DNA from: Pelagibacteraceae bacterium
GTDB lineage: Bacteria > Pseudomonadota > Alphaproteobacteria > Methylaequorales > Methylaequoraceae
NCBI GenBank assembly: GCA_042090305.1
Contig: JBELJQ010000002.1
Coordinates: 1,970 to 65,969 of the forward strand
DNA: 64,000 nt
Reading direction: 5' to 3'
Positions 42,849 to 60,720 of this stretch are shown here, piece by piece. The number at the start of each line of letters is the position of its first letter. The first letter of the stretch is position 1. The notes under the pieces were generated by a model. That model had not been told where the DNA came from and did not search any database. It worked only from the letters and a program-made list of their open reading frames with translations. The translations under genes were made by a program, and so were the position numbers.

Positions 42849-43640
42849 TTACATTCCTGGCAGTCTCATAAGACTAGCACCAACAGAGTCAAGTTCTTCA
42901 GTCATTTGAATCATTTTCACATGCATTTCAAATTTTCTTTGTTGATCAATAGTATTGACCATTTCTTCAACTGCATTAACATTACTTTTTTCTAATGTGC
43001 CGGCAACAAGCTTGCCTTGATTATTTGGCTCAATATCTACTAAACCTATCTGCCCATTCTCGTTAGGCTCAGATTCTAATCTGATATGACCATCAAGAGT
43101 TTTCTTTAGTCGATCATTTTCGGTGGGAACAAATGTAGCAATTAATGCAGCATTTACTGGAAGAGCATCTGGCTCTGCACCTGTTGGCTCAATAATGATT
43201 TCACCATTTGGTGAAATATCAATTCGCCTAAATGCTGGTAAAACAATTGGTTGCAACCCATCATCTAATATTTTATTTCCAGCTCCATCTAGAAGTTCAC
43301 CATTTTCACTAGTTTGTAGGTCACCTCTTCTCGAAAGTGCTGGCTTGCCTCCATCTCTAGGCTCAATTAGGAAATATCCGTTTCCATCGATTGCAATATC
43401 GAGAGGGTTACCAGTAGTGTCCATAGATCCTTGTTGTGTTGAAAATCCACCAACATTTCTACTGGAAACGATTCTTGGCTCAACTCCATTCTGCCTGTTA
43501 AGATAAATTGAACCAAAGTCTGTAACAACATCTTGACGATATCCAGGAGTACTAAGATTAGATAAATTATGAGAAGTGGCCGTTTGATTTTCCATCAACA
43601 TTTTTAGACTATTAAGAGCCGTTTGTGCCATTCTATCCAT
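42849..43640 (-). CDS. flgF: Flagellar basal-body rod protein FlgF
   Basis: N-terminus TSHNLSNLSTPGYR. C-terminus LEKSNVNAVEEMVNTIDQQRKFEMHVKMI matches FlgF (E. coli ...ANARRFEMQMKVI). Follows flgE. Confidence 0.85.
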   Translation of the reverse strand: MDRMAQTALNSLKMLMENQTATSHNLSNLSTPGYRQDVVTDFGSIYLNRQNGVEPRIVSSRNVGGFSTQQGSMDTTGNPLDIAIDGNGYFLIEPRDGGKPALSRRGDLQTSENGELLDGAGNKILDDGLQPIVLPAFRRIDISPNGEIIIEPTGAEPDALPVNAALIATFVPTENDRLKKTLDGHIRLESEPNENGQIGLVDIEPNNQGKLVAGTLEKSNVNAVEEMVNTIDQQRKFEMHVKMIQMTEELDSVGASLMRLPGM

Positions 43641-43669
43641 AACTTTTCTCCAAAAATAATACCGAATTA

Positions 43670-46600
43670 TTACATTCTAATATTTACAATCGCCTGTGTT
43701 GTTGCAGCTGTTGTTTCAATCGATTTAGCATTCGCCTGAAAGTTTCTTTGAGCTGTGATTAAATTAACAAGTTCTTCTGTAATATCAACATTAGATCTTT
43801 CAAGTGAACCTGAAAGAACAGTACCAAAACCCTCGGCACCTGCTTCACCAACTGTTGCAGTTCCTGATACAGCTGTTTCTACATATGTTGCATTACCAAT
43901 TTGTTTCAAACCATTTTGGTTGTTAAAGTTTGCCAATACAATCTTACCAAGTGGATTATTCTGTCCATTGGTATAGTTTGCTCTAACGGTACCTGATGCA
44001 TCAATCTCTAGACCATCCAATCTTCCAGATGTAAAACCATCCTGATTAACAGTCGATACGAAGAATGGCTGTGCTAACTGAGTTGACTTTGTAAAGTCAA
44101 TATCAAGGTCAATACTAAAACCAGCTTCCTGTTTCTCGTAATGAACTCCCTGTTTAGGACTTAGAATACTTCCTGATTTGTCAAATGTAAGTTCACCCTC
44201 GTCAATGTATAGTGGAAAATATCCATCTACCAAATTTGCAGGAGGCGTGGTAACTTTATTACCAGCAGCGTCAACAAATAGATTAAGTCCGTCCGCGTTA
44301 GTTGCCTGTTTAAGATTATAAATCTGAGGGACTGATCCTACGCCTAAATCAACGTTATCCAGCCCAAATTTAGAAGCACCTCTGACTTTAATAGTTGATT
44401 CCTTACCAGTTGTTCCGTTGGTAAATGTGAAATTATTAGTGGATGAGTTATATTTTACAGTAATACCCCCACCAACTACTCCGGTACTATCTTCAATCTG
44501 ATTAATTCTTTCTTGAAGAGCTTCTGCAAGAGTTGTTCCCACATAAAATCCCTGAGGTATCTCAATAACCCCAGCGACACCATTTACAGATACGTTAAAA
44601 ATATTTTCATTACTTTGATTTGTTAATCTAAAAACCTGAGATAAATCTTCAGTAGCTGATGAGCCAACTGCTTGTGCTGGCTGGGCGGCTAATCCTTTAG
44701 CATCAGTTGTAATTGCATTAGTTTTAGTAACACCAATTCCCAATAGGTTGTTATCTCCCGAGAAAAAGTCCGTACTGTCAGTCACTGATCCATCGGTAGT
44801 AGATAATAGGTACCTTCCAACAACAATACTTGAAGCAGTTTGAGCTTGGTTAACTCCAATTGCACCATTAGCTGCAATTGTTTCACCTGTTGTACCACTG
44901 CTAAATTCAAAAGATTTTAACTCACTATTATAGCCAACCTTAACTCCAAATCGTTTATCGTTGAGTTGAATTTCAGCTCCGTCAGCAACAAAAGTACTTG
45001 CAGAAAATTTAACACCACCTCTGATGAGTGTTTCAGAAGTATCATCAGCGGTTGGTATTCCAAGATTATTTTCATTAGTTGCAGTTGTTGAACCAAAAAT
45101 CTTGAAACTATTAAAATTACTATTTGTTCCCGTACCTATGAGATTTCTATCCACTTCAAACTGAAGTCTTTGATTTAACACATCATAAGAAACTTCAATT
45201 GGCGGATCTTGCTCATCAACCCAATGTGTTGCTGGTATTGTTTTATCAGTTGATGTTCCATCACCGTTAAGATAAACATCTCTTGTAGTTGCAGATGTAT
45301 TTTCTCCTAATCCTAGTAATTCATAAGAATCAATCGTTGCACCAGAAGTTACTTCACCAACTTTTAGTGTAAATACTTCGGCTAAGTCATCAATGATATT
45401 CTTAGCTGCACCATCTGCAGTTGTTTTTGTTACCATTGCTGCATTTGTATAATCATGCTTAGTCGTTGTTCCTATTTCCCTTACGACAATCTTTGAGCTA
45501 CTAAAGTTGACCGGTGCTCCAGAATAAACGTTTTGTGCTCCCTCAAAGAATGCCTCTACTGATGTAGATTCTTCAGAATAGATTTTCGCTGAATCATTTG
45601 CATCAGCTACAGACAAAGAAAAATCTGAATCTGGAAAATTTAATCCTGCAGTACTAGCTTCAACATAATAATAAGTAGTACCACCCACACTTTCAGACCC
45701 TGTTGTAGAAATAGTAAACTCTCGACCATTCACAAAATCAGAATTTGTATTCATTGTTGTATCTGAATAAAATGATCCAATAAATCTAACTTTTTCATTA
45801 GCTGTGAGTGCTGGGTCAGATGACCCAAAATAAAATCTAACAGTATTTTCAGATTGATCGTATGACACGGCTGTTGTGCTTGCGTTATCACCTAGTGAAT
45901 CTACCTCATCATAAACATGAAGTTCAGGACTTTTACCATGATATGAATAAGTCAGATTTCTAGCTGTAGAAGTAGCTCCAGATGCCGTTAACGCTGCTGC
46001 ATCAGTTGCAGTACGATGATTAAAAGTGAATGCCTGACTTTGGTCCAGTATAGTACTAATAGACTTACCAGATGCTCTGTAGAATAAGCTATCACCCACA
46101 CCTAAAGCAGTTGCACTAGCTACTGCATCGGTAGATGGTGTAACAGCATATTCATTTAGAGCTGCATTTAAACGAGCCTGAGTATGCGCTAAAAATTGGT
46201 CTCTTGTAAAATCCGGTGAAGCTCCAGTTAGGGTGATTCCCTCTAAATCAGAAACATATGAATCACTTAGTAGATCCACTGAAACTGGTGTAGTTAAACC
46301 CGTAGATGTTCCATCAGCGTTTAATTTTAATAAATCAATTGTTAAAGTATCATCAACATTTTGTACAATTTGAATTTTTTTATCATCTCCATAAGCTGCA
46401 TTAACAGCTCTTTGGATCTCTGTAGATAATTGTGCTGCATTATAAGCGCCTGGTCTAATATCAATGTTTACAGGTTGGTCACTATTATCAACGTTAATTG
46501 TCATAAAATTTGTCCCCCAATATACACTGGAAGTTGTGTCACCACTTTCACGAGTTGAGTTAAATTTCATTGGGTCTGTAACAATAGTTACAGTTTTGTC

Positions 46601-47542
46601 TCCTTCTTCACCAAAATCAAACGCACTTGATTCACCTGTTACCTTAGCTGGTGTTGAATCAATTAATGTTTGTAAATCATCTAACTTATACAAGGCAGAG
46701 CCTTTTCCTTCCAAGAAATAGTTATCATCTGGAACTGATGTAGTTTGTTGACCGAAACGATCAATAAAAATAGGTTGTTGAGTATCTGTAACTGAACGCA
46801 CTAAATCTGGATCAATTACCGTATCGTTAATGACCAATCTAGTTTCAAATTTATTGGTAGGATCATCAGCTGATGCTGCTTGTGTACGAATAAAAAATAT
46901 AGTTGCAATTGTGGGGTTACCTAAATCATCAAAGATTGTGATTGATGTTGAGTTATTGTAGGTAGTTGGATCATTAGGATCAAAAACATAACCATTTTCA
47001 AATTGTGGTTTATCGGTAATAATTTCACTTGTAGCAGAAACGTTTACACCTAATTCGATAGATGTTGTTGCCTTCGGAGTTCCTGAAGTTACTGGTAGTT
47101 GAAGAGGCACAGCACTAACTAAATCTTTTGCTGTAACTGATCCATCCTCGTTAACCGGAAAAGTAAGTAAAAACTGACCAGATGAATCTGTAACATATCT
47201 ATCATTATTCACGTTAAATGAACCGTTCCTTGTATAAACCGTCTGACCAGAAGTAAGTGATGGTTTTAATGAAAAGAAACCCTGTCCAGAAATTGCTACA
47301 TCTAAAACGTTAAGAGATGATGTAATATTACCCTGAGTAAACTGCTGCTTTACACTTTTTAGAATTGTACCAGAACCGATCGATGACGATGCATTCTGTA
47401 GTGGAGAAGTTGCAAAAATATCACCAAATTCAGCTCTTGACCTTTTGAAACCGGTTGTATTAACGTTTGCTATATTATTCGAAGTTGCAGAAATATCTGA
47501 CTGTGCTCCGTTTAACCCTGTTAATGCAGTATAAAATGACAT
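43670..47542 (-). CDS. flgE: Flagellar hook protein FlgE, giant form (1290 aa)
   Basis: N-terminus MSFYTALTGLNGAQSDISATSNNIANVNTTGFKRSRAEF. C-terminus LERSNVDITEELVNLITAQRNFQANAKSIETT. Follows flgD. Residues ~235-1085 are an extra Thr/Ser/Gly/Asp/Asn-rich, Cys-free insertion. Confidence 0.85.
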   Translation of the reverse strand: MSFYTALTGLNGAQSDISATSNNIANVNTTGFKRSRAEFGDIFATSPLQNASSSIGSGTILKSVKQQFTQGNITSSLNVLDVAISGQGFFSLKPSLTSGQTVYTRNGSFNVNNDRYVTDSSGQFLLTFPVNEDGSVTAKDLVSAVPLQLPVTSGTPKATTSIELGVNVSATSEIITDKPQFENGYVFDPNDPTTYNNSTSITIFDDLGNPTIATIFFIRTQAASADDPTNKFETRLVINDTVIDPDLVRSVTDTQQPIFIDRFGQQTTSVPDDNYFLEGKGSALYKLDDLQTLIDSTPAKVTGESSAFDFGEEGDKTVTIVTDPMKFNSTRESGDTTSSVYWGTNFMTINVDNSDQPVNIDIRPGAYNAAQLSTEIQRAVNAAYGDDKKIQIVQNVDDTLTIDLLKLNADGTSTGLTTPVSVDLLSDSYVSDLEGITLTGASPDFTRDQFLAHTQARLNAALNEYAVTPSTDAVASATALGVGDSLFYRASGKSISTILDQSQAFTFNHRTATDAAALTASGATSTARNLTYSYHGKSPELHVYDEVDSLGDNASTTAVSYDQSENTVRFYFGSSDPALTANEKVRFIGSFYSDTTMNTNSDFVNGREFTISTTGSESVGGTTYYYVEASTAGLNFPDSDFSLSVADANDSAKIYSEESTSVEAFFEGAQNVYSGAPVNFSSSKIVVREIGTTTKHDYTNAAMVTKTTADGAAKNIIDDLAEVFTLKVGEVTSGATIDSYELLGLGENTSATTRDVYLNGDGTSTDKTIPATHWVDEQDPPIEVSYDVLNQRLQFEVDRNLIGTGTNSNFNSFKIFGSTTATNENNLGIPTADDTSETLIRGGVKFSASTFVADGAEIQLNDKRFGVKVGYNSELKSFEFSSGTTGETIAANGAIGVNQAQTASSIVVGRYLLSTTDGSVTDSTDFFSGDNNLLGIGVTKTNAITTDAKGLAAQPAQAVGSSATEDLSQVFRLTNQSNENIFNVSVNGVAGVIEIPQGFYVGTTLAEALQERINQIEDSTGVVGGGITVKYNSSTNNFTFTNGTTGKESTIKVRGASKFGLDNVDLGVGSVPQIYNLKQATNADGLNLFVDAAGNKVTTPPANLVDGYFPLYIDEGELTFDKSGSILSPKQGVHYEKQEAGFSIDLDIDFTKSTQLAQPFFVSTVNQDGFTSGRLDGLEIDASGTVRANYTNGQNNPLGKIVLANFNNQNGLKQIGNATYVETAVSGTATVGEAGAEGFGTVLSGSLERSNVDITEELVNLITAQRNFQANAKSIETTAATTQAIVNIRM

Positions 47543-47564
47543 TTTTTATTTCTCCTTTAAGTTA

Positions 47565-48269
47565 TTAATCGTTTGTTTTAAGCTTGATTGCATCATTTGC
47601 TGAAATCTCACCATAATCTTTTGTTTCTAAAATTACATCCTCACTATTTTTTGGAGCAGAAGCTGCTATAACCTTATTATAGACGGCTGTACTTATTCCA
47701 TCACTTGCTTGACCATTCCCAGCATATGCTTGGATTGTAAGACGTGTTTTATTGCGTTTTATATCATCAGGTAAATCCGTCCAACTAAAACCAACCAAAC
47801 CTCTATCATTTGAACCAAGATTCATCGTATGAACAATTTCACCACTTGGGTTTGTGAAGGTTATACCCACATCATTTGAGTAAGCCGGCAAATCTACAAC
47901 TCCATGTATTTCACCTTTATCATCTGGGCTCGCAACTTGACCTGGAACTAAAACGGAATGACCTAAAAATTGAGCTGCCGTTGCCACTCTGTTAGGTTCT
48001 AACTTTGATCCTAAATTAGTTAAATTATTATTAATTTCAGTTATACCTGTTACAGTAGAAAATTGTGCCATTTGTGCGATAAAGTCACCATTATCCATTG
48101 GTGCAAATGGATCTTGATTCTGAAGCTGTGTTGTCATTAATTTCAAAAAATCTTCTTGACCAAGCGTATTTTTATTACCTTCTTTTTTTACATCATCTTG
48201 TGTTTTAACTCCCAACTTAGAGAGAATTTTGTTTAATGATTGTTCAGATGTATTTGAAATGTCAGTCAT
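47565..48269 (-). CDS. flgD: Flagellar hook capping/assembly protein FlgD
   Basis: LGQEDFLKLMTTQLQNQDPFAPMDNGDFIAQMAQFSTV is the FlgD signature. flgC-flgD-flgE order. Confidence 0.9.
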   Translation of the reverse strand: MTDISNTSEQSLNKILSKLGVKTQDDVKKEGNKNTLGQEDFLKLMTTQLQNQDPFAPMDNGDFIAQMAQFSTVTGITEINNNLTNLGSKLEPNRVATAAQFLGHSVLVPGQVASPDDKGEIHGVVDLPAYSNDVGITFTNPSGEIVHTMNLGSNDRGLVGFSWTDLPDDIKRNKTRLTIQAYAGNGQASDGISTAVYNKVIAASAPKNSEDVILETKDYGEISANDAIKLKTND

Positions 48270-48282
48270 AATTTACCCCTAT

Positions 48283-48696
48283 TTATTTTCCTAAACTTGC
48301 AGTTTTAAGCATTAGTGCTTTTATTGTTGATATTACTTCAACATTGTTTTGATAGTGTCTAGATGCTTCAAGCATATCTACATATTCTTCTTCAATATTG
48401 ACTGGAGCTCTATAAATAAAACCCTCTTGGTCAGCCATTGGATGGCCAGGTTTATACTCTTTAATTGGCTCAACATCCATTTTTTCTACAGAAACCGCAT
48501 CTACTGTCGAGATTCCCCTTTTCCTAATTAAGTCAAAATATTTAGTTTCGAAAACTGGTTTAACCGGTTTGTAAGCGTCTTGAGGACTAGAAGCAATATT
48601 ATCAGCATTAGCAAGATTACTAGCAGTTGCATTTAGTCTGACTAATTGAGCTCCCATTGCTCTTTGAGCTATATGATATATGTTTTTAATATCCAT
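48283..48696 (-). CDS. flgC: Flagellar basal-body rod protein FlgC
   Basis: LNATASNLANADN and VDMLEASRHYQNNVEV motifs. 137 aa. Confidence 0.92.
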   Translation of the reverse strand: MDIKNIYHIAQRAMGAQLVRLNATASNLANADNIASSPQDAYKPVKPVFETKYFDLIRKRGISTVDAVSVEKMDVEPIKEYKPGHPMADQEGFIYRAPVNIEEEYVDMLEASRHYQNNVEVISTIKALMLKTASLGK

Positions 48697-49085
48697 TATT
48701 CTCCTCTAATTGCGCTTAGCAAACCTCTGATTTTTGAATTTACAAAATCTAAGGTTGTTTGGTATCTAACTGAGTTTTGTGCGAATTCCATTTGCTCTAC
48801 AGCTAATTCAACCGTATTTCCATCAACTGATGGGTTTATAGACTGTCTATACTGGACTTTTCCTGGTAAATACTTTGTTGTTAATGCAATGTGACTATCA
48901 CTTGAAGTTTTTAGTGGACCGTTATTTAACGATCTTGCTAGTTCTACTTCAAAATCAACATCTCTTGCTTTAAAATTTGGAGTAGATGCATTTGCAATAT
49001 TAGATGCTAAAATTTCATTCTTCTTGTTTCTAATACTTAATGCATTGCTGTATACATCAAATTGTTGTTTAATATTGTTAACCAT
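48696..49085 (-). CDS. flgB: Flagellar basal-body rod protein FlgB
   Basis: ILASNIANASTPNFKARDVDFE and FAQNSVRYQTTLDF motifs. I place the start at ATG 49085. The track start at 49130 lies on top of the sigma-54 promoter. Confidence 0.85.
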   Translation of the reverse strand: MVNNIKQQFDVYSNALSIRNKKNEILASNIANASTPNFKARDVDFEVELARSLNNGPLKTSSDSHIALTTKYLPGKVQYRQSINPSVDGNTVELAVEQMEFAQNSVRYQTTLDFVNSKIRGLLSAIRGE

Positions 49086-49101: not shown

Positions 49102-49117
49102 TGGTTTGGAATTTGCA
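49102..49117 (+). promoter_or_regulatory. Possible sigma-54 promoter for the divergent 369-aa gene
   Basis: The + strand reads TGGTTTGGAATTTGCA. GG-N10-GC spacing is exact and the -12 TTGCA is perfect. The -24 element deviates (TGGTTT). It shares the palindrome ATTTGCAAAT with the flgB promoter. The predicted +1 is near 49128, with a GAAAGG SD before the ATG at 49149. Confidence 0.45.
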
Positions 49118-49129
49118 AATTGAATGCCA
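49113..49129 (-). promoter_or_regulatory. Sigma-54 (-24/-12) promoter of the flgBCDEF operon
   Basis: Reverse strand reads TGGCATTCAATTTGCAA, versus consensus TGGCACG-N4-TTGCW. GG and GC have the exact spacing. The predicted +1 is near 49103, 18 nt before the flgB ATG. Confidence 0.75.
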
Positions 49130-50258: not shown

Positions 50259-50262
50259 AATT

Positions 50263-50628
50263 ATGCTAATTCGAAAGCACTTATTTAATTTGAAGTTAAT
50301 ATTCTTTTTAATGTTTATTTTTTTTTTAAATAGCTGTGAAGACTTATTTTTGAGGTTTAAGTATGAAACATATGAATGTCAGGAAAATAATATGGACCTT
50401 AGAAAGGTTTCAATTAAAGACAACGACGTCGGTGATCTCGTTGATGTGGAAATAGGTAACTATCTTTATAAATTCAAAATCATTGCAGTGAGTGACAAAG
50501 ATATGATTATAGAAGAGGAAGTTGAGGATTTCTCAATCAAAATAAATCATAACACCAATAACATGGAAGCAAAATTGAATAACTTAATATTTAAAGTAAA
50601 TTGTGATAAAAAAACTTTTAAAATGTAG
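50263..50628 (+). CDS. Putative small lipoprotein
   Basis: From the ATG at 50263: MLIRKHLFNLKLIFFLMFIFFLNSCEDLF. This is a signal peptide plus a lipobox-like LNSC. 121 aa. The track start at 50182 overlaps the upstream gene. Confidence 0.5.
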   Translation: MLIRKHLFNLKLIFFLMFIFFLNSCEDLFLRFKYETYECQENNMDLRKVSIKDNDVGDLVDVEIGNYLYKFKIIAVSDKDMIIEEEVEDFSIKINHNTNNMEAKLNNLIFKVNCDKKTFKM

Positions 50629-50637: not shown

Positions 50638-51063
50638 TTAACGTTTACCATGAAATTTTATAATTGGTTCAACTTCTTCGGTAGATAAGTTAGTTGCTTC
50701 AGAAATTTCTGAAATATTTTTTCCCTGATTAGCCATTTGAATGGCCATCGTAATTTTTGATTCACCGCTTGATGAATCCGCTAAACGTGCAATCTCTAAA
50801 TCAATCTTTTCTAATGTATACTTATAATCTTCAATAACTTTCTTCTGGTCTGTAAATAAAAGTTCTAGTCTTCTAAACTCTTCAATGAGATCTTTGATTG
50901 CCCTTTCAAGCATATAAACTTTCTTCGCGTTATCTTTATTCTTTTTATTATCCAGATAATACCCTAATGCAATAATGGATAACATAAATAAAGATATAAG
51001 AGTCAAGAGCAAAATAAAGTTATTTGATGATTCATTAGAAAAAAGATTATTAATAAAGTTCAT
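50638..51063 (-). CDS. Membrane-anchored coiled-coil protein with C-terminal HTH-like segment (DUF2802-like?)
   Basis: N-terminal TM helix, coiled-coil middle, C-terminus ITMAIQMANQGKNISEISEATNLSTEEVEPIIKF. This resembles the DUF2802 proteins of gamma-proteobacterial flagellar/chemotaxis clusters. Assignment is from memory only. Confidence 0.35.
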   Translation of the reverse strand: MNFINNLFSNESSNNFILLLTLISLFMLSIIALGYYLDNKKNKDNAKKVYMLERAIKDLIEEFRRLELLFTDQKKVIEDYKYTLEKIDLEIARLADSSSGESKITMAIQMANQGKNISEISEATNLSTEEVEPIIKFHGKR

Positions 51064-54063: not shown

Positions 54064-54570
54064 CTATAAAGTTTGGGCAGACCTAAATAAATAGGCAACC
54101 ATGTCTTGGTCTATTTCTAAAACAGTTTCATAAGTGTCTTGACCAGTTGGATTTATTCTTACTGTTCTCGCGCCTCTGATAACTCCGGATACTACACCTC
54201 TAAAAGTGTCATTTTGAACCATTAAATCAATAACAGTTGTATTACTGTCTACTTTTAATCCATGAATTTGTTCAGCTAAATCTCTCATTGCCGACATTCT
54301 CGCAGCTCTTATAGCCATCAATCTTTTCTGTTCAATACTCTGGCCTGGTTGACTAGATACCACTGCATAACCCGTTGCAGTGAGTGTCGGAAAATTAATA
54401 GATGCACCATCAAGTAACTCTCTTGTTTTGTTTAACTGATCAGTAGGGGTTGAATAATCCTGACTATTAGCTAACTTTTGATTATTGTTTGGTAATCCTA
54501 TATTATCTAATAAGTTTGTCGAACATGATTGCACCAAAATTGCAATAATAAATAAATATATGTACTTCAT
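54064..54570 (-). CDS. FlgP-like LPP20-family flagellar lipoprotein
   Basis: Lipobox-like ILVQSCS. LPP20 core TATGYAVVSSQPGQSIEQKRLMAIRAARMSAMRDLAEQIHGLKVDSNTTV. Confidence 0.6.
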   Translation of the reverse strand: MKYIYLFIIAILVQSCSTNLLDNIGLPNNNQKLANSQDYSTPTDQLNKTRELLDGASINFPTLTATGYAVVSSQPGQSIEQKRLMAIRAARMSAMRDLAEQIHGLKVDSNTTVIDLMVQNDTFRGVVSGVIRGARTVRINPTGQDTYETVLEIDQDMVAYLFRSAQTL

Positions 54571-54602: not shown

Positions 54603-54619
54603 GTGCATAAATTATGCCA
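54603..54619 (-). promoter_or_regulatory. Sigma-54 promoter of the flgP-flgT-LysM-flgA(-flgM...) operon
   Basis: Reverse strand reads TGGCATAATTTATGCAC. GG/GC spacing is exact; the -12 is ATGCA. The predicted +1 is near 54593, 23 nt before the ATG at 54570. Confidence 0.65.
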
Positions 54620-54656: not shown

Positions 54657-54673
54657 TGGCATAGCCCTTGCAT
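54657..54673 (+). promoter_or_regulatory. Sigma-54 promoter of the flhA-flhF-flhG-fliA operon
   Basis: The + strand reads TGGCATAGCCCTTGCAT, a near-perfect match to TGGCACG-N4-TTGCW. The predicted +1 is near 54683, 88 nt before the flhA ATG. Confidence 0.75.
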
Positions 54674-54770: not shown

Positions 54771-56918
54771 ATGGATTTAGTACTAAAAACATTCCGATCA
54801 CAAAACTTAATAAGTTTTCTAAGAACATTCAGTATTCCTATCGGAATAATGGTCTTAGTTGCAATGATGGTAATTCCACTAAATCCTTGGATGTTAGATA
54901 TCTTATTCACAACAAATATTCTTGTTTCACTATTAGTACTTATGGTGGCTCTGCAGACCTTTAGACCATTAGATTTTTCAAGTTTTCCTACTGTACTTTT
55001 ATTTGCCACAGTTTTGAGACTTGGATTAAATGTAGCATCGACCCGTGTAATTCTAAAATCTGGGCATAATGGAACTGACTCAGCAGGAAGTATTATCGAG
55101 GCATTTGGAGAATTTGTAATGTCAGGAAGTTATGCTGTGGGACTTTTTGTATTCTCAATTTTAGTAATAATAAATTTAATTGTAATAACTAAGGGAGCAG
55201 GAAGAGTTTCAGAGGTCGCAGCACGGTTTACCCTTGACGCTATGCCAGGAAAGCAAATGGCAATAGATGCTGACTTAAATGCTGGAGTAATTACAAGTGA
55301 AGAAGCAAAAGAAAGAAGAAGTGAAATTGCTAAGGAAGGAGAATTTTACGGAGCAATGGATGGTGCAGCAAAATTTGTTAAGGGTGATGCTGTTGCAGGT
55401 ATTCTAATTTTAGTAATAAACATAATTGGTGGTTTGATAATAGGGACAACACAGCATGATTTAACTCTTAATCAGTCGGCTGAGTCATATATTTTATTAA
55501 CAGTAGGTGATGGTCTTGTTGCTCAGATACCTTCTTTACTTTTAGCGATGGCAACGGCAACCATCGTTACAAGAATCTCGTCCGACAATGATGATCTAGC
55601 CGGTCAAATTTCAAATCAGATGGGTTTGTCAAAAGCATGGACGCCTGTTTCAGCAGTATTACTAGTATTTGGACTTGTTCCAGGAATGCCAAATACCCTT
55701 TTCATAGCTGGATCAATAATTGCTGGAACAATAGCATGGATTACCTCTAAAAAAACAAAAAAAGAGAGCGATGAAGAATTGAATAATAATGATACTGAAG
55801 ATTCTGATTCAATTGGACAAATTGATATCGAAGACGTATCAGATAATGCATCAATTTCTCTTGATTTAGGTTATGGCTTAATTTCAATGGTTGATTCAAG
55901 TGATAAAAAGTCTGCAGGACCTCTTATTTCTAAAATCACGGGTATAAGAAAACAGGTATCAAAAGATCTAGGCTTTGTTATTCCTAATGTCAGAGTAAAG
56001 GATGACCTCACATTAGAAGCTAATTCTTACAGAATAAGGATTGGTCATACAATAGTTGCGCAGGATAAAGTTTATGTCGATAGAAAATTAGCAATGCCAA
56101 GTGATGAAACTCAATTAAAAATTCAAGGTATTCAAGTAAAAGACCCAACTTTTGGTTTAGATTCTTTTTGGATAGAGCAGCATTTAGTATCAAAGGCTGA
56201 AGCAAATCATTATATGATAATTGAGCCAGAGGCAGTGATTGCAACTCATCTTAATCATATTTTACTTAGATTTTCAGGAGAGTTGATAAGTCAAGATGAT
56301 GTTCAGTCTTTAGTAGATAATCTTGGCAAAACTAATCCTCAATTGATTCAGTCAGTTATACCAAAGCTAGTTCCTTTACATCACTTAACAATAATTCTTA
56401 GGAATCTTTTATCTGAGCGAGTTCCAATAAATGATTTAAAAAAAATATTAGAAGCATTAACGAATTTATCAGAGAAAAAACTTAGTCCAGAAGAGTTGTC
56501 AGAAGCAGTAAGACCAGCAATCTCATCACTTCTTATCCAAAAAATATCAAATATAAATGAAGCATTGGATGTTGTTACATTTAATCCTGAATTTGAGCAA
56601 ATGCTGATTTCAATGTCTAAAAAAAGTGGTTCAGATGGAATTCTTATTGATCCTCAATTAGCTAAACAAATGATAAGCTCTTTAATTGAGGTTGGTGAAA
56701 AATTTTCAATGGATGGCAATCCTCTTGTTATTGTTACAGCGCCAGTCATTAGAAAAGATATAGCTGTATTGTTAAGACAGCATATTGAAGATCTCGTGGT
56801 TTTATCATTTACAGAACTACCTGAAAATAAAAGAGTAAAAGTTGTCTCAACTATCGGAGAAAAAATCATTAATAATAATACACAAAAGGAGAAATCTAAT
56901 GAAAACGCAACTGTTTAA
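54771..56918 (+). CDS. flhA: Flagellar type III export gate protein FlhA
   Basis: 715 aa. FHIPEP-family motifs (RFTLDAMPGKQMAIDADL, GAMDGAAKFVKGDA, LLTVGDGLVAQIPSLL) plus a cytoplasmic C-domain. Confidence 0.95.
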   Translation: MDLVLKTFRSQNLISFLRTFSIPIGIMVLVAMMVIPLNPWMLDILFTTNILVSLLVLMVALQTFRPLDFSSFPTVLLFATVLRLGLNVASTRVILKSGHNGTDSAGSIIEAFGEFVMSGSYAVGLFVFSILVIINLIVITKGAGRVSEVAARFTLDAMPGKQMAIDADLNAGVITSEEAKERRSEIAKEGEFYGAMDGAAKFVKGDAVAGILILVINIIGGLIIGTTQHDLTLNQSAESYILLTVGDGLVAQIPSLLLAMATATIVTRISSDNDDLAGQISNQMGLSKAWTPVSAVLLVFGLVPGMPNTLFIAGSIIAGTIAWITSKKTKKESDEELNNNDTEDSDSIGQIDIEDVSDNASISLDLGYGLISMVDSSDKKSAGPLISKITGIRKQVSKDLGFVIPNVRVKDDLTLEANSYRIRIGHTIVAQDKVYVDRKLAMPSDETQLKIQGIQVKDPTFGLDSFWIEQHLVSKAEANHYMIIEPEAVIATHLNHILLRFSGELISQDDVQSLVDNLGKTNPQLIQSVIPKLVPLHHLTIILRNLLSERVPINDLKKILEALTNLSEKKLSPEELSEAVRPAISSLLIQKISNINEALDVVTFNPEFEQMLISMSKKSGSDGILIDPQLAKQMISSLIEVGEKFSMDGNPLVIVTAPVIRKDIAVLLRQHIEDLVVLSFTELPENKRVKVVSTIGEKIINNNTQKEKSNENATV

Positions 56919-58023
56919 AGCTAAAGATATGAAGTCTGCTATAAACCTTGTAAACGATCAATTTGGCGAAAAGGCTATAATTTTATCTACTAGGAAAAAT
57001 AATGGTCTTGTTGAGGTGGAAGCTTCTGATACCGAGGATGTAATTCAAAAACATAAAGAGAAAATCAAAGATAAGGAAAGTTTCTCAAAAGTTTTTATGA
57101 AAGAAATTAAGGAAAAGAATGATAATGTTTCATTTTTTGATACAGAAAATAAGACAAAGTACGAAAGTAGTCAAAAACTTGAAGTTTATGATGAAATTAA
57201 GCAACAAATTTATTCTTTAAGGGATGATTTAAGTAGAATGGTTTTAACTGACCAGTCAGGAATTTCTGATGAACTCTCTCACTTAACACCTATTAAACTT
57301 CGACAAGAAAAGTTTTTACCAGAAGTCATTAATAAATTTAGTCATTCATTTATTGGAAAAAATAGTGAAGATGGCAGGATTGCTTTTTTCAGAGAATTAT
57401 CTAGAAAACTTGCATCTAACGATTTTTCTAGAATGTTAAATTCCAATAATATATTTATTTTTGGAAACTCTGGGTCTGGAAAATCTACATTATCTGCTAA
57501 AATTGCTTCATTTCTATCGGATAAAAGGTCAACAAAAGAAATAAACTTTATTGATGTTTCTAATTCAGGAACTTCACACAGTGATATTCTTAGATCATAT
57601 AGTAGGGTTCTAAGCTTTCCCGTAAAAGATTATAAATATTTTGATTTCAATCAAAATCAAAATGATCGCTCAAAAATTAATATTTTTGATTTTTCAGGAG
57701 ATCTTAATTTTAGTTTGCAAAAAATTAATGAGATAAAAAATTCATTTCCGTCTTTTGATTTTTGTTCTATATTAGCTATACCAAGTGGTTCTAATTCTGA
57801 AATGATAAAAGGAATGTGCGAGAGAGTTTCAGATGTAAGACCAATGGTTGCTATCACAAAGCTTGATGAATGCTGGGTGGGAGCTGAAGAATTTTCTTCA
57901 CTTGCATTAAATAATGCAAGAATAGGCTTAGTTACTGGTACAAAAGTATTGATTAACTCAGTAATCGAAGCTAATGAGAATTCTCTAACGAAATATATGA
58001 AAGAGAACTTAAAAGGTGTCTGA
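56899..58023 (+). CDS. flhF: Flagellar placement SRP-type GTPase FlhF (divergent G motifs)
   Basis: From the ATG at 56899 (AGGAG SD): MKTQLFKAKDMKSAINLVNDQFGEKAIILS is a typical FlhF B-domain start. G1 is GNSGSGKST, G3 is DFSG, G4 is TKLDE. Follows flhA. Confidence 0.8.
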   Translation: MKTQLFKAKDMKSAINLVNDQFGEKAIILSTRKNNGLVEVEASDTEDVIQKHKEKIKDKESFSKVFMKEIKEKNDNVSFFDTENKTKYESSQKLEVYDEIKQQIYSLRDDLSRMVLTDQSGISDELSHLTPIKLRQEKFLPEVINKFSHSFIGKNSEDGRIAFFRELSRKLASNDFSRMLNSNNIFIFGNSGSGKSTLSAKIASFLSDKRSTKEINFIDVSNSGTSHSDILRSYSRVLSFPVKDYKYFDFNQNQNDRSKINIFDFSGDLNFSLQKINEIKNSFPSFDFCSILAIPSGSNSEMIKGMCERVSDVRPMVAITKLDECWVGAEEFSSLALNNARIGLVTGTKVLINSVIEANENSLTKYMKENLKGV

Positions 58024-58810
58024 TTCGGTTGCAATTACTAGTGGAAAAGGTGGGGTAGGCAAAACAACTTTTGCTGTCAACTTATCCATAGCTTTTAAAA
58101 AAATCTCTGATGAGGTTTTCTTATTAGATACTGATCTAGGTATGGCTAACTCTCATGTTCTTCTTGGAGACAACCCTAACTATACTATAGCTGATGTAAT
58201 TTCAGGTAATAAAAAAGTTTCTGAAATCATTTATAAAAATAAATATGGAATAAATCTTATATCTGGAGGAACTGCCTCAAACAATGTTCTTAACATAGAA
58301 AATAAGGCCAGATATTCCATATTAAATGGAATTGAAAATCATTTAATGAAATACAATAGTCTTAAACTTATTGTGGATATAGCTGCAGGAGCTGATGATA
58401 ATTCACTTATTTTCTCTATGGCATGCGATAGGATCGTGATAGTTATTGTTGGCGAGCCTACTAGTTTTATTGATTCATATGCTCTTATAAAAGCTTTATA
58501 TGCAAAATCATCCTTTAAAAACTATTGCATTGCCGTCAATCAAGTTGATGATGAGGCAAATGGAGTGGAATTATTCAAAAAATTTCAAGCAATTACATCT
58601 AAGTTTTTAGATGTTAATCTTCATTATGTAGGTTCTGTTAAAAGCTCAAGAAAGATTTCAAGATCTATTGTAGATAGAAAACCAATAACGGTCAGCGATC
58701 CTAAATCTGATATATCTCTAAATTTTTTTAAAATAGCAAAGAAGGTTACAGAGACACCTGTTAACGAATGGGGGGGCTTAACTTTTCTTTCACAAAAAAA
58801 AAGAGCGTAA
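58016..58810 (+). CDS. flhG: MinD/ParA-type ATPase FlhG (FleN)
   Basis: Deviant Walker A SGKGGVGKTT at residues 9-18. Sits between flhF and fliA. GTG start overlaps the flhF stop. Confidence 0.85.
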   Translation: MSDSVAITSGKGGVGKTTFAVNLSIAFKKISDEVFLLDTDLGMANSHVLLGDNPNYTIADVISGNKKVSEIIYKNKYGINLISGGTASNNVLNIENKARYSILNGIENHLMKYNSLKLIVDIAAGADDNSLIFSMACDRIVIVIVGEPTSFIDSYALIKALYAKSSFKNYCIAVNQVDDEANGVELFKKFQAITSKFLDVNLHYVGSVKSSRKISRSIVDRKPITVSDPKSDISLNFFKIAKKVTETPVNEWGGLTFLSQKKRA

Positions 58811-58819
58811 AATATCAGT

Positions 58820-59521
58820 ATGAATAATTTATATTCTCAAAATTCAGATACTATAGTCAATGATCTAATTGAAAAAAACCTCGATTTGGTAAAAAAAATT
58901 GCATGGCAAATTCATGGAAGAGTTAATAATGTAATTGAAATTGAGGATCTGGTTCAACAAGGTATGGAAGGTCTTGTGCATGCTGCTCAAAAATATTCTC
59001 AAAGAGAAAATATAACTTTCCCTCAATATGCCCAATTAAGAATAAGAGGAAGTATAATTGATTTTTTAAGAAAAAATTCAAATCTTTGTAGGACTACAAT
59101 AAAGAAAAAACAAGACTTTGAAAGAAAAAGAAATAATCTACAACAGGAATTGGGAAGAGAACCAACTCAAGATGAAATAGTCAATTATTTAGGTATTTCA
59201 TTTGATGAGTATGATTACTGGAAAAAATCATTTGAGGCAAATAATATTCAAAGTTTAGACAATGCGTATAATGAGTATTCCTTGTTATATGCTTCCCATG
59301 AAGAAAGTCCAGAAAAGAAATTAGAGAATAAAGAGTTAAAGGAACAAATTAAAAGTGCATTAAAAGTTTTAAATCAAAGAGAGGCATTAATTGCACAACT
59401 TTATTATGTTGAGGAATTAAACATATACGAGATTTCAGATGTTCTTGAAATAAGTACTGGAAGAATATCTCAAATAAAAAAGAAGATTGTTGAAAAATTA
59501 AGATATGAAATCATCAAATAA
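58820..59521 (+). CDS. fliA: Flagellar sigma factor FliA (sigma-28)
   Basis: Region 2 DLVQQGMEGLVHAAQKY...YAQLRIRGSIIDFLR. Region 4 LNIYEISDVLEISTGRISQIKKKIVEKLR. 233 aa. Confidence 0.92.
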   Translation: MNNLYSQNSDTIVNDLIEKNLDLVKKIAWQIHGRVNNVIEIEDLVQQGMEGLVHAAQKYSQRENITFPQYAQLRIRGSIIDFLRKNSNLCRTTIKKKQDFERKRNNLQQELGREPTQDEIVNYLGISFDEYDYWKKSFEANNIQSLDNAYNEYSLLYASHEESPEKKLENKELKEQIKSALKVLNQREALIAQLYYVEELNIYEISDVLEISTGRISQIKKKIVEKLRYEIIK

Positions 59522-59906
59522 TTGGAAAAGCCTGAATAATGTTGTTTTAAGAGTTGATAATGTAGAAGCAATCTACACTAAAAAAACAGAAATAATTCTA
59601 AATTGTGGTTTCGAAAATATTTCTAAAGGAAGATGCAACTTGAGAGTGAGTGTAAATAATAAAAATAAAAAAAACAACTTATATGTTTTTACTGATAAGG
59701 CATTGATGGAGGTTGAGTTATACTATAGTAAATCTGAAATTGATGAAATTTTGAAACTTATTTTTCTTAAGAAATCTTCAAAAAAATCTATTATTATTCT
59801 AAATATTTCTGATAATTTATTAATAAATGAAAATAACTACTTATATATAAAAAACAATATAACTATCGCTATAAACTCAATCGATTGGAAAATTCCTTTA
59901 TCTTAA
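59505..59906 (+). CDS. Hypothetical protein (133 aa) translationally coupled to fliA
   Basis: ORF overlaps the fliA 3' end by 17 nt. Asn/Lys/Ile-rich, no signal peptide, no motif I recognise. Confidence 0.45.
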   Translation: MKSSNNWKSLNNVVLRVDNVEAIYTKKTEIILNCGFENISKGRCNLRVSVNNKNKKNNLYVFTDKALMEVELYYSKSEIDEILKLIFLKKSSKKSIIILNISDNLLINENNYLYIKNNITIAINSIDWKIPLS

Positions 59907-59907
59907 T

Positions 59908-60693
59908 TTACCTGGATGAAAACTTTTTTGTTATTTCTACTTCTGACTGAAGAATTTTTGAACATCCATTAAATGCACGTTGTGTCCTCAACATTAAAAC
60001 AATTTCATCAGTAATGTCTGTATTAGATCTCTCAAGAAATCCAGGCTCAATCTTTCCGATTGTCCCTTCCTTTGGTCTTCCAAACTCAGGTAAACCACTT
60101 TCACCAGTTCTTTTAAACCTTGCATTACCTATATTTTGAAGTCCGTGTTCATTTACAAAGTCAGCAAGCTCAAGCTGCCCTACATTTTCAGTATTATCTA
60201 GTCCATAAGTTGCTAAAATAGAACCATCAGATTTTACAGAAATCTCAGAGAGTAATTGCTGACCAGCCCCTTCGAAAGGTATGTTTATGGGTTGCTGACC
60301 TTCACCTAGTAGCGGTAGTCCATCAGTATTAACAAGGTTACCTGTTCTATCTAATTGAAATGAACCATCTCTTGTAAAAACTGGTTCATCAGTTGATGTT
60401 TCTCTCCCAATTGGTGTTCCCAGAGCAAAAAAACCTTCGCCCATGATTGCTAAATCTAAACTACCATTAGTTTGTTGAAGTGAGCCTTGTGAAAAGTTTT
60501 GTCTTGGCTTAATTGTCCTAACTCCAATACCATTTGCTTTTTCTGTAGAATCATTGTGAATTGACCTGTACATATCCTCAAACTGAGCTTCACTTTTTTT
60601 GAATCCGTTTGTACCGGCATTAGCAATATTATTTGAAATTACTGATAAATCTCTATTAGATGCATCTAGACCAGTTCTAATTATATTAAACAT
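59908..60693 (-). CDS. flgG: Flagellar rod/hook-family protein, FlgG-like (261 aa)
   Basis: From the ATG at 60693: MFNIIRTGLDASNRDLSVISNNIANAGTNGFKKSEAQFED. C-terminus LERSNTDITDEIVLMLRTQRAFNGCSKIL. GEGFFAL and FTRDGSF motifs. The 350-aa track ORF is extended artefactually through the antisense of tRNA-Val. Confidence 0.75.
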   Translation of the reverse strand: MFNIIRTGLDASNRDLSVISNNIANAGTNGFKKSEAQFEDMYRSIHNDSTEKANGIGVRTIKPRQNFSQGSLQQTNGSLDLAIMGEGFFALGTPIGRETSTDEPVFTRDGSFQLDRTGNLVNTDGLPLLGEGQQPINIPFEGAGQQLLSEISVKSDGSILATYGLDNTENVGQLELADFVNEHGLQNIGNARFKRTGESGLPEFGRPKEGTIGKIEPGFLERSNTDITDEIVLMLRTQRAFNGCSKILQSEVEITKKFSSR

Positions 60694-60704
60694 GAAGCAT
60701 GAAC

Positions 60705-60720
60705 AGCAATTATTATGCCA
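60705..60720 (-). promoter_or_regulatory. Sigma-54 promoter of the flgG-like gene
   Basis: Reverse strand reads TGGCATAATAATTGCT, with exact GG-N10-GC spacing and a TTGCT -12. The C of the GC is only 13 nt upstream of the ATG. Confidence 0.65.

What the first reader, a model, noticed from the sequence alone, without database searches (positions are those of the whole stretch)
42849..60720. Gamma-proteobacterial-style polar flagellar cluster embedded in a streamlined alphaproteobacterial core genome
An ~18 kb block of flagellar genes sits between an EamA transporter and tRNA-Val, in a genome segment that otherwise looks like a minimal SAR11/HIMB59-type alphaproteobacterium. Lineages with this degree of compaction are generally regarded as non-motile.

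The organisation is not the classical alphaproteobacterial one:
- flhA-flhF-flhG-fliA are contiguous.
- A flgA-flgM-(flgN-like) unit is present.
- FlgP/FlgT-like outer-disk proteins are present.
- The operons have sigma-54 promoters.

These are hallmarks of Vibrio/Pseudomonas polar flagella, and of the horizontally acquired Fla1 system of Rhodobacter sphaeroides.

The set in the window is incomplete. I saw no fliF/G/M/N/P/Q/R, flhB, fliI, motAB, flgHIJKL, flagellin or che genes. Either a second locus exists or this is a reduced or repurposed apparatus.
Basis: partly seen in the sequence, partly recalled or inferred. Interest (0 to 1): 0.75.

Follow-up and report, generated by a model that had tools for sequence, protein, structure and literature searches.

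The report
Fla1/fla3-type flagellar genes, streamlined marine alphaproteobacterium
A very compact, AT-rich marine alphaproteobacterium carries an intact and conserved half of a polar-flagellum gene set of the kind known from Rhodobacter sphaeroides "Fla1", and its relatives carry a second half, so this small-genome plankton lineage is probably motile, which is unusual but uses a known type of machine.

Summary
Window 42849-60720 holds about 20 intact flagellar genes between an EamA gene and tRNA-Val. Everything else in the window is housekeeping, with about 94% coding and a median 7-bp spacer. Four sigma-54 promoter elements sit before flgB, flgP, flhA and a lone FlgG-like gene, and they are conserved in relatives.

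The block is not a chimera or a recent island.
- Both junctions recur in independent assemblies and in single-cell genomes.
- GC3 matches the flanking genes.
- There is no integrase and no tRNA repeat.
- Three more distant clade members (FlhA 80-84% identical) have it at the same site.

A second locus exists. It carries fliF-fliR, flhB, motAB and rpoN, and it lies in relatives' genomes, apparently on the same contigs as FlhA and AspS.

The closest labelled relative is the fla3-type cluster on Octadecabacter arcticus plasmid pOA238_118, which is the R. sphaeroides "Fla1" type. FlhA is 55% identical, and the gene blocks, the giant hook protein and the extra rod paralog are shared. In a neighbour-joining tree this group is sister to gamma/beta FlhA and separate from classical alphaproteobacterial FlhA.

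I did not find flgGHIJKL, flagellin, fliD/S/E, enhancer-binding proteins or che genes. The host's order is unresolved.

Verdict: new member of a known kind, of moderate interest.

The parts
42849..43640 (-). flgF (proximal rod), last gene of a flgBCDEF operon
   Evidence: Pfam Flg_bbr_C and LlgE_F_G_D1. Best match is O. arcticus FlgF, 38% identity.
43670..47542 (-). flgE, giant hook protein of 1290 aa
   Evidence: Pfam Flg_bb_rod, D1, FlgE_D2 and Flg_bbr_C. It is homologous over almost its whole length to the 1410-aa O. arcticus FlgE. Many cluster representatives of 900-1700 aa exist.
47565..48269 (-). flgD (hook cap)
   Evidence: Pfam FlgD, 83 bits.
48283..48696 (-). flgC (rod)
   Evidence: Pfam. 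91% identical in L004 and L213.
48696..49085 (-). flgB (rod)
   Evidence: Pfam Flg_bb_rod. Called as 129 aa in independent contigs.
49114..49129 (-). sigma-54 promoter element TGGCATTCAATTTGCA before flgB
   Evidence: Conserved in L004, L213 and L005.
49149..50258 (+). Conserved N-terminal domain followed by a variable K/E-rich tail. Divergent from flgB. Function unknown.
   Evidence: No HMM hit. The N-terminus is 61-64% identical in relatives and 25% identical to the O. arcticus gene divergent from flgB.
50182..50628 (+). Small conserved ORF of unknown function
   Evidence: No HMM hit. 40-51% identical in relatives.
50638..51063 (-). DUF2802-like protein
   Evidence: Pfam DUF2802, 27 bits, below the cut-off. 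Present in relatives.
51095..51379 (-). 94-aa ORF in the position where flgN is expected
   Evidence: Position only. No HMM hit.
51396..51707 (-). flgM (anti-sigma-28 factor)
   Evidence: Pfam FlgM, 28 bits against a cut-off of 25.
51743..52438 (-). flgA (P-ring chaperone)
   Evidence: Pfam ChapFlgA, 66 bits.
52441..52869 (-). LysM/FimV-core-like small protein
   Evidence: NCBIfam FimV_core, 29.7 bits, and LysM, both below cut-off. Faint LysM hits in relatives. A homologous stretch lies between flgA and flgT in O. arcticus.
52879..54060 (-). flgT-like (outer-membrane-associated ring)
   Evidence: Pfam FlgT_N, 37 bits against a cut-off of 28.8. No PDB sequence match.
54064..54570 (-). flgP (LPP20 lipoprotein, basal disk)
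   Evidence: Pfam LPP20. PDB FlgP 8z5n, E 1e-16.
54604..54619 (-). sigma-54-like element TGGCATAATTTATGCA before flgP
   Evidence: Conserved in L004, L213 and L005.
54657..54672 (+). sigma-54 promoter element TGGCATAGCCCTTGCA before flhA
   Evidence: Conserved.
54771..56918 (+). flhA (export gate)
   Evidence: Pfam FHIPEP, 770 bits. Tree.
56899..58023 (+). Divergent flhF (SRP-type GTPase)
   Evidence: TIGR03499, 71 bits, below the cut-off. PDB FlhF 2px0, E 4e-9, and 9en1.
58016..58810 (+). flhG/fleN (MinD-like ATPase)
   Evidence: Pfam ParA/CbiA and its position.
58820..59521 (+). fliA (sigma-28)
   Evidence: TIGR02479, 206 bits against a cut-off of 190.
59505..59906 (+). 133-aa ORF overlapping the end of fliA. 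Function unknown.
   Evidence: A gene of the same size follows fliA in O. arcticus and in L005. The structure model was too poor to use.
59908..60693 (-). Lone FlgG-like rod/hook paralog
   Evidence: Pfam. Reciprocal best hit is the lone O. arcticus gene OA238_RS27015 (164 bits), not its operon FlgG (135 bits).
60705..60720 (-). sigma-54 promoter element TGGCATAATAATTGCT before the FlgG-like gene
   Evidence: Conserved in L004 and L213.
60769..60844 (+). tRNA-Val(GAC), the right boundary. Not part of the machine.
   Evidence: No repeat of it at the other border.

Best explanation
The block is locus 1 of a multi-locus, sigma-54/sigma-28-controlled polar flagellar system of the fla3 / R. sphaeroides 'Fla1' type. 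It is a long-standing, vertically inherited part of the genome of an abundant, AT-rich, streamlined marine alphaproteobacterial clade.

Locus 1 encodes:
- the proximal rod (FlgB, FlgC, FlgF), the hook cap (FlgD), a giant hook (FlgE) and an extra rod-like paralog;
- the P-ring chaperone FlgA;
- the outer ring/disk proteins FlgT and FlgP;
- the export gate FlhA;
- the placement and number pair FlhF/FlhG;
- the late-gene switch FliA/FlgM.

Four operons start at sigma-54 promoters.

Shown in relatives only: a second locus supplies the MS ring, C ring, export apparatus, ATPase, FliK, FliL, the MotAB stator and rpoN.

Inferred, not shown:
- A third locus holds flgGHIJKL, flagellin, fliD/S/E, the enhancer-binding activators and possibly che genes.
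- The cell swims with a single polar or subpolar flagellum.

Unresolved: whether the clade's ancestor received the cluster by horizontal operon transfer, as fla3 spreads in Rhodobacterales, or inherited it from a deeper alphaproteobacterial ancestor.
For: Intact genes and families.

Sigma-54 sites at all four operon starts, conserved while their spacers vary.

The junctions are real:
- EamA-FlgF appears in 8 of 8 independent contigs.
- FliA-orf133-FlgG-like-DctP-DctM appears in L085 and L086.
- The same layout and right flank appear in single-cell genomes L004 and L213 and in JGI contig L237 of 215,832 bp.

Conservation equals or exceeds that of the flanking genes.

The second locus is seen in L126, L098, L212 and L230. 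Its FlhB hits share longest-contig lengths with FlhA and AspS hits: 222,865, 215,832, 160,635, 121,077 and 72,759 bp.

Fla3 relationship:
- FlhA is 55.4% identical to the O. arcticus pOA238_118 protein.
- Gene blocks are shared.
- In the neighbour-joining tree the fla3-group clade has 100% bootstrap support.
- O. arcticus carries a fla3 cluster, and fla3 is the R. sphaeroides 'Fla1' type (PMC5030684, PMC12363192).
Against: - Flagellin, FliD, FliS, FliE, FlgG-L, sigma-54 activators and chemotaxis genes were not seen in any sequence I could reach.
- FlhF is below NCBIfam's cut-off.
- FlgT rests on one domain.
- Only four relatives' sites were inspected.
- There is no expression or microscopy evidence.
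- The two Octadecabacter type strains, which carry fla3, were described as non-motile (PMC5030684).
Confidence: 0.78

Rival explanations
1. The apparatus is reduced or repurposed. The lineage keeps a basal body and export machine, for example for protein secretion, but no longer swims, as with the flagellar remnants of Buchnera.
For: No flagellin, cap, junction proteins or che genes were found. FlhF is divergent. Octadecabacter strains that carry fla3 were described as non-motile (PMC5030684).
Against: - Those genes were simply outside the sequence I could reach.
- Relatives keep the stator MotAB, the switch FliG/M/N, FliL and FliK.
- The window keeps FliA/FlgM, whose known role is to time late genes including flagellin.
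- The hook and rod proteins are among the most conserved in the region, at 85-91% identity.
Confidence: 0.12
2. The block is a recently acquired genomic island from a gammaproteobacterium, inserted next to tRNA-Val.
For: tRNA-Val lies next to it. The gene content is gamma-like. All non-clade genome hits apart from two MAGs (L005 and L006) were gamma or beta, at 40-46% identity.
Against: - GC3 is 0.198 against 0.218 for housekeeping genes.
- No integrase or IS gene is present, and the tRNA has no repeat.
- The site and flanks are the same in relatives whose FlhA is 80-84% identical.
- No donor is closer than 46% identity among gamma/beta sequences.
- The nearest labelled relatives are alphaproteobacterial.
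Confidence: 0.03
3. The contig is an assembly or binning chimera that joins a flagellated organism to a streamlined one.
For: None found.
Against: Both junctions recur in independent ENA, Logan, TARA and JGI assemblies and in single-cell genomes. Composition is uniform.
Confidence: 0.01

Closest known systems
fla3-type flagellar gene cluster of Rhodobacterales, whose reference is Cereibacter (Rhodobacter) sphaeroides 2.4.1 RSP_0032-RSP_0083, the 'Fla1' flagellum. Compared here through Octadecabacter arcticus 238 plasmid pOA238_118.
   Same: - FlhA is 55% identical and groups with it at 100% bootstrap.
- The block flgP-flgT-(LysM-like)-flgA-flgM-x-x is divergent from flhA in both.
- fliA is followed by a 133-aa ORF in both.
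- The flgBCDE(F) order is shared.
- The hook protein is giant in both (1290 and 1410 aa).
- Both have a lone extra rod paralog.
- In relatives, flhB is followed by two conserved unknown genes with rpoN further downstream, and motAB sits next to an Lcl_C-domain gene.
- From my own memory, R. sphaeroides also has a separate flgBCDEF operon, sigma-54 control through FleQ/FleT, FlgT, FlgP and a very large FlgK.
   Different: - The cluster here is chromosomal and split into at least two, probably three, loci among housekeeping genes. In O. arcticus it lies on a plasmid, split up among many IS elements.
- The host is AT-rich with a small genome.
- A recognisable FlhF follows flhA here, whereas the O. 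arcticus gene in that position shows no detectable similarity.
- C. sphaeroides itself was not compared.
Polar flagellar systems of Vibrio and Pseudomonas
   Same: - flhA-flhF-flhG-fliA are contiguous.
- FlgM/FliA are present.
- Early operons depend on sigma-54.
- FlgT and FlgP are present.
- In relatives, the fliF-fliR-flhB order is shared.
   Different: - FlhA is only 41-46% identical and lies in a sister clade, not inside the gamma/beta clade.
- FlgO, MotX, MotY and FleQ/FlrA were not found in the sequence in hand.
- The flg operon is broken after flgF.
- The hook is giant.
Classical alphaproteobacterial flagellar clusters (Rhodobacterales fla1, Rhizobiales, Azospirillum plasmid copies)
   Same: Host class. 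The core proteins are universal.
   Different: FlhA is 34-37% identical and forms a separate clade. No flaF/flbT-type genes are present. FliA/FlgM/FlhF/FlhG are present here.
Flagellar remnants of reduced-genome symbionts such as Buchnera
   Same: Small AT-rich genome. Only part of the gene set is visible in the window.
   Different: The context is free-living plankton with full housekeeping genes. Stator, switch and regulatory genes are retained in relatives.

Membership tests
fla3 / R. sphaeroides 'Fla1'-type flagellar gene cluster | FlhA groups with fla3 reference sequences and apart from other cluster types. Published typing uses FlhA, FliF, FlgH and FlgI. | tested here: met
   FlhA only. 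It is 55.4% identical to the O. arcticus fla3 protein, and the clade has 100% bootstrap in a neighbour-joining tree of 33 sequences. O. arcticus is fla3 according to PMC5030684.
fla3 / R. sphaeroides 'Fla1'-type flagellar gene cluster | Shared gene blocks and accessory genes | tested here: met
   Annotated O. arcticus cluster. tblastn of window and L212 proteins against it. Rod-paralog reciprocal best hits.
fla3 / R. sphaeroides 'Fla1'-type flagellar gene cluster | Sigma-54-dependent promoters and an rpoN gene inside the cluster | tested here: met
   Four conserved sites in the window. rpoN is present in L098, L212 and L230 of relatives, not in the window.
fla3 / R. sphaeroides 'Fla1'-type flagellar gene cluster | Sigma-54 enhancer-binding activators (FleQ/FleT-like) next to fliE-fliF | not testable with these tools
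   They are present in O. arcticus. The region upstream of fliF in the clade lay about 1 kb beyond the 10-kb flank that could be fetched.
fla3 / R. sphaeroides 'Fla1'-type flagellar gene cluster | flgGHIJKL operon with a rod-binding-only FlgJ and a very large FlgK, plus flagellin, FliD and FliS | not testable with these tools
   No hit in any locus held.
Vibrio/Pseudomonas-type polar flagellum | FlhF GTPase encoded next to flhA | tested here: inconclusive
   TIGR03499, E 1.6e-19, but 71 bits against a cut-off of 174. PDB FlhF 2px0 and 9en1 are the best hits. By my reading of the sequence, G1 and G4 are present and G2 is degenerate. The structure model was unusable.
Vibrio/Pseudomonas-type polar flagellum | FlhG/FleN, FliA and FlgM | tested here: met
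Vibrio/Pseudomonas-type polar flagellum | FlgT and FlgP ring/disk proteins | tested here: met
   FlgT_N scores 37 bits and LPP20 33.5 bits, both above cut-off. FlgP matches PDB 8z5n at E 1e-16. FlgT has no PDB sequence match.
Vibrio/Pseudomonas-type polar flagellum | Core proteins fall inside the gammaproteobacterial clade | tested here: not met
   The window clade is sister to the gamma/beta clade. The two together have 99% bootstrap support. Sampling was limited and the method was neighbour-joining only.
Vibrio/Pseudomonas-type polar flagellum | FlgO, and the MotX/MotY T-ring | tested here: inconclusive
   None appeared among the Pfam or NCBIfam hits of the ORFs scanned from the window, L126, L098 and L212. 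The rest of the genome was not seen.
Classical alphaproteobacterial flagellar cluster | FlhA groups with Rhizobiales, Azospirillum or Rhodobacterales plasmid copies of the classical type | tested here: not met
   34-37% identity and a separate clade.
Recently acquired genomic island | Deviant composition, mobility genes, tRNA-derived direct repeats, and patchy presence among close relatives | tested here: not met
   - GC3 is 0.198 against 0.218, and the tRNA-Val has no repeat.
- No integrase or IS gene is present.
- The site is occupied in 8 of 8 contigs that span the left junction and in the two (L085, L086) that span the right junction.
- It is also occupied in L004, L213 and L237.

The most novel reading that the evidence does not exclude
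An abundant, globally distributed marine alphaproteobacterial clade has genomes of about 1.5-1.6 Mb and about 30% GC. These metrics match AEGEAN-169/HIMB59-like plankton, and the genomics papers on that group that I read never mention flagella. This clade is actively motile by a sigma-54-controlled, disk-bearing polar flagellum with a giant hook. It spends roughly 3% or more of a streamlined genome on motility, and this has gone unremarked. That would be a counter-example to the rule that streamlined oligotrophs do not swim.
Probability: 0.35. Interest if true: 0.65.

Novelty: new member of a known kind. Interest (0 to 1): 0.45.

Why it matters
Genome-streamlined ocean bacteria are usually treated as passive, non-motile osmotrophs. 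A conserved flagellar system in such a lineage would mean that some of them can exploit nutrient patches, which would change how their niche and carbon uptake are modelled.

It also widens the host range of the fla3/'Fla1' flagellar type beyond Rhodobacterales. There the type is seen as horizontally spread. Here it is a lineage in which the same type is stably inherited, which bears on where that system came from.

Tried and rejected
- **Host order.**
  - NCBI labels of relatives say only 'Alphaproteobacteria bacterium' or 'Rickettsiales bacterium'.
  - SAG AG-901-J22 is not in the HIMB59 genome table or the SAR116 table. Other supplements held nothing.
  - Papers on HIMB59/AEGEAN-169 and SAR116 never mention flagella or motility.
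  - Mitibacteraceae differ: they have larger genomes and higher GC than other Rickettsiales and lack a complete glycolysis pathway.
  - The order therefore stays open.
- **Third locus.** O. arcticus FlgH, FlgI, FlgK, FlgL, FliD, FliS, FliE, flagellin and activator proteins found no clade sequence in any locus held. The region upstream of fliF lay just beyond the fetchable flank.
- **Structures.** Single-sequence models of FlhF and of the 133-aa ORF had mean pLDDT of 38-39 and were not used.
- **Promoter and terminator scans.** The sigma-70 and terminator scan was no better than shuffles. No convincing sigma-28 promoter was found.
- **FlhG.** I considered that FlhG lacks the N-terminal FlhF-activating motif, but most gamma/beta homologues in hand (30 of 39), including the Pseudomonas ones, lack it too. 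I dropped the point.
- **Rfam.** It found only the two tRNAs.

Full report
**What is in the window**

The ORFs between 42849 and 60693 were scanned against Pfam and NCBIfam and compared with PDB sequences.

On the minus strand lies an operon flgB-flgC-flgD-flgE-flgF (49085 down to 42849). FlgE is 1290 aa. Divergent from flgB are two conserved ORFs of unknown function (49149-50628).

A second minus-strand operon runs from 54570 down to 50638. In order it encodes:
- flgP (LPP20 family; PDB FlgP 8z5n, E 1e-16);
- a flgT-like gene (FlgT_N domain only);
- a small LysM/FimV-core-like gene;
- flgA;
- flgM;
- a 94-aa ORF with no detectable family;
- a DUF2802-like gene.

Divergent from flgP, on the plus strand, are flhA, a divergent flhF, flhG, fliA and a 133-aa ORF that overlaps the end of fliA (54771-59906). 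The flhF scores 71 bits on TIGR03499 against a cut-off of 174, but its best PDB matches are FlhF 2px0 and 9en1.

A lone FlgG-like gene (59908-60693, minus strand) ends the block just before tRNA-Val.

Every gene is intact.

**Surroundings**

All other ORFs of at least 100 aa in the window were scanned. Apart from two with no family match, every one is housekeeping. They include rpsF-rpsR-rplI, fabDGF and acpP, gmk, ksgA, pdxA, surA, lptD/F/G, pepA, holC, ndk, purNM, hda, aspS, RNase R, topA, plsY, pyrBC, gatCAB, two photolyase-family genes, ahpC, an ornithine-decarboxylase-like gene and EamA. On the other side lies a TRAP transporter.

A greedy ORF cover gives 94% coding and a median spacer of 7 bp. 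Window GC is 30.0%. No further flagellar or chemotaxis gene is in the window or within 10 kb beyond either end of it on the source contig's relatives.

**Sigma-54 promoters**

Five sites in the 64-kb window lie within one mismatch of TGGCAC-N5-TTGCW, against 0.94 expected by chance. Three of them keep both the GG and the GC. All three read TGGCAT-N5-TTGC[AT]. All three lie in the correct orientation in the short intergenic regions before flgB, flhA and the FlgG-like gene. A two-mismatch site lies before flgP.

The same four sites occur at the same places in two relatives (L004, L213), with the conserved elements kept and the spacer varying. Three occur in a high-GC relative (L005). In the second locus of a relative (L212), such sites precede fliK, motA, an Lcl_C-domain gene and a lytic transglycosylase gene.

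**Not a chimera and not a recent island**

Exact-protein look-ups found the EamA-FlgF junction in 8 of 8 independent contigs from ENA, TARA and Logan assemblies. They found the FliA-orf133-FlgG-like-DctP-DctM junction in two further assemblies.

The whole block has the same order and the same right-hand neighbours (DctPQM, pyruvate kinase) in three places:
- single-cell genome AG-901-J22 (L004, FlhA 81%);
- single-cell genome GCA_902599235.1 (L213, FlhA 84%);
- a 215,832-bp JGI contig (L237, FlhA 80%).

Third-position GC is 0.198 in the flagellar genes and 0.218 in the housekeeping genes. No piece of tRNA-Val is repeated at the other border. No integrase or IS gene is present.

Flagellar proteins are as conserved as the flanking transporter or more so. 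Against L004 and L213, FlgC is 91% identical, FlgD 85-89%, FlhA 81-84% and DctP 75-80%.

**The relatives**

More than 120 clusters of FlhA at 78-98% identity exist in marine metagenomes, some on contigs of hundreds of kilobases. Clade proteins sit on contigs of 1.46, 1.49, 1.54, 1.58 and 1.62 Mb. I read this as genomes of roughly 1.5-1.6 Mb, which is an inference.

NCBI labels are only 'Alphaproteobacteria bacterium' and 'Rickettsiales bacterium'. These metrics equal those published for AEGEAN-169/HIMB59: 1.26-1.84 Mb and 27-32.5% GC (PMC10308909). However, AG-901-J22 is missing from the HIMB59 and SAR116 genome tables I could read, and the papers on those groups never mention flagella. The host's order is therefore unresolved.

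**A second locus exists**

I scanned the metagenome collection for the FlhB autocleavage motif TNPTH[YF][AS][VI]AL written with A/T at fourfold third positions. A group of marine contigs at about 30% GC carried fliL-M-N-O-P-Q-R-flhB, motA, motB and rpoN (L126, L098).

A protein search with that FlhB returned hits whose longest contigs have exactly the lengths already seen for FlhA and AspS hits: 222,865, 215,832, 160,635, 121,077 and 72,759 bp. One search shows the 215,832-bp contig carrying locus 1 directly.

In single-cell genome GCA_902522465.1 the locus reads as follows (the order is the same in L230):
- fliF-G-H-I-(J?)-K-L-M-N-O-P-Q-R-flhB;
- four small or unknown genes;
- an RRF-like gene;
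- an unknown gene;
- motB and motA;
- an Lcl_C gene;
- two small unknown genes;
- rpoN;
- a small unknown gene;
- a lytic transglycosylase;
- an M23 peptidase.

So the window holds one part of a larger set, not a stump. I could not reach flgGHIJKL, flagellin, fliD, fliS, fliE, the sigma-54 activators or che genes.

**What kind of flagellar system**

Against annotated plasmids, the best FlhA match by far is Octadecabacter arcticus 238 plasmid pOA238_118, at 55.4%. The other matches are lower:
- Ralstonia, Salmonella and Cupriavidus: 39-42%;
- Azospirillum, Phyllobacterium, Paroceanicella and Sinorhizobium copies: 34-37%;
- injectisome SctV proteins (Yersinia, Shigella): 31-33%.

Gamma and beta genomes give 40-46%.

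The annotated plasmid cluster shares these features with the window and with locus 2:
- the flgP-flgT-(LysM-like)-flgA-flgM-x-x block divergent from flhA;
- fliA followed by a 133-aa ORF;
- the flgBCDE order with a giant FlgE (1410 aa);
- a lone rod paralog, which is the reciprocal best hit of the window's FlgG-like gene;
- flhB followed by two conserved unknown genes, with rpoN further downstream;
- motAB next to an Lcl_C gene.

The literature types the Octadecabacter cluster as fla3. The fla3 reference is C. sphaeroides RSP_0032-0083, the flagellum first called Fla1. Fla3 is reported as spread by horizontal operon transfer within Rhodobacterales (PMC5030684; PMC12363192).

I built a neighbour-joining tree of 33 FlhA sequences rooted on Yersinia LcrD.
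- The window, the two single-cell genomes, the 'Rhodobiaceae' MAG and O. arcticus form a clade with 100% bootstrap support.
- That clade is sister to the gamma/beta clade, and the two together have 99% support.
- The classical alphaproteobacterial copies fall outside.

The sampling is modest and the method simple. 'Sister to' rather than 'inside' gamma/beta should be taken as provisional.

**How it most likely works**

Shown:
- the genes;
- their intactness;
- the four sigma-54 promoter elements;
- the presence in relatives of rpoN, the export apparatus, the rings, the switch and the stator.

Inferred from established knowledge of these families:
- Sigma-54 with an activator turns on the early operons.
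- FlhA with FliPQR-FlhB exports rod and hook subunits.
- FlgD caps the growing FlgE hook.
- FlgA helps P-ring assembly.
- FlgT and FlgP build an extra periplasmic or outer-membrane ring or disk.
- FlhF and FlhG set the polar site and number.
- Export of FlgM frees FliA to switch on late genes such as flagellin.

The break after flgF matches what I recall of R. sphaeroides, where flgBCDEF and flgG-L are separate operons. That rests on memory and was not tested.

**Verdict**

It is wrong in implying a foreign insert: the block is an old, ameliorated, syntenic part of this clade's genome. The system is a new member of a known kind. Interest lies in the host: a very compact, abundant marine lineage that keeps dozens of flagellar genes.

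Noticed in passing
window 43670-47542; L223 20434-24666 and 28505-32815: The hook protein is giant (1290 aa) and rich in Thr, Ser and Gly, with essentially no internal repeats. It is the best-conserved protein of the block between the window and L004 (91% over the part held). O. arcticus fla3 has a 1410-aa FlgE and a 1436-aa FlgK. A search with the central 1110 residues found more than 50 cluster representatives of 900-1700 aa, and one of 2492 aa. Giant hooks are therefore a sizeable family, not a one-off.
   Followed up: partly
window 59908-60720: The lone FlgG-like gene is an extra rod/hook paralog, orthologous to O. arcticus OA238_RS27015, and not the operon flgG. The -12 element of its sigma-54 promoter ends only about 12 nt before the ATG, so the mRNA may be leaderless or nearly so. 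The same spacing is seen in L004 and L213.
   Followed up: partly
L212 13069-13668; L126 5040-5639; L230 13116-13718: A divergent ribosome-recycling-factor-like gene lies inside the second flagellar locus between flhB and motB. It is 199-200 aa, with Pfam RRF at E 3e-11 and TIGR00496 at only 30 bits against a cut-off of 149. It is conserved in three clade members. Its role there is unexplained.
   Followed up: no
L212 16633-17183; L222 about 25501-25899: An Lcl_C-domain protein of about 158 aa is transcribed divergently from motA. The two sigma-54-like sites overlap back to back. A homologue sits next to motA in O. arcticus. It may be a stator-associated periplasmic protein.
   Followed up: no
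L212 19936-20568; L098 2967-3607: A lytic transglycosylase (SLT domain) gene beside rpoN has its own TGGCAT-N5-TTGCT site. This suggests a flagellum-dedicated peptidoglycan-cutting enzyme, like SltF of R. sphaeroides (from memory).
   Followed up: no
L001 6066-7248; L214 3-2780: In one TARA scaffold, flgT is called as two ORFs (179 and 220 aa). In one KOPF15 scaffold, flgE is called as two pieces (508 and 371 aa). The cause is either population variants with frameshifts or assembly errors in these genes.
   Followed up: no
window 49149-50258: The ORF divergent from flgB has a conserved N-terminal region of about 140 aa followed by a long K/E/D/N-rich low-complexity tail. The tail differs in length between relatives (277-369 aa).
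   Followed up: partly
window 36868-39776: Two adjacent photolyase/cryptochrome-family genes. One is a clear CPD photolyase. The other is a divergent DPRP/FAD_binding_7 protein. This fits a sunlit surface-ocean lifestyle.
   Followed up: no
L088 14448-15743 (about 8 kb beyond the window's left end): A flavocytochrome-c sulfide dehydrogenase-like gene (FCSD domains) lies near the window on a contig of the same population.
   Followed up: no
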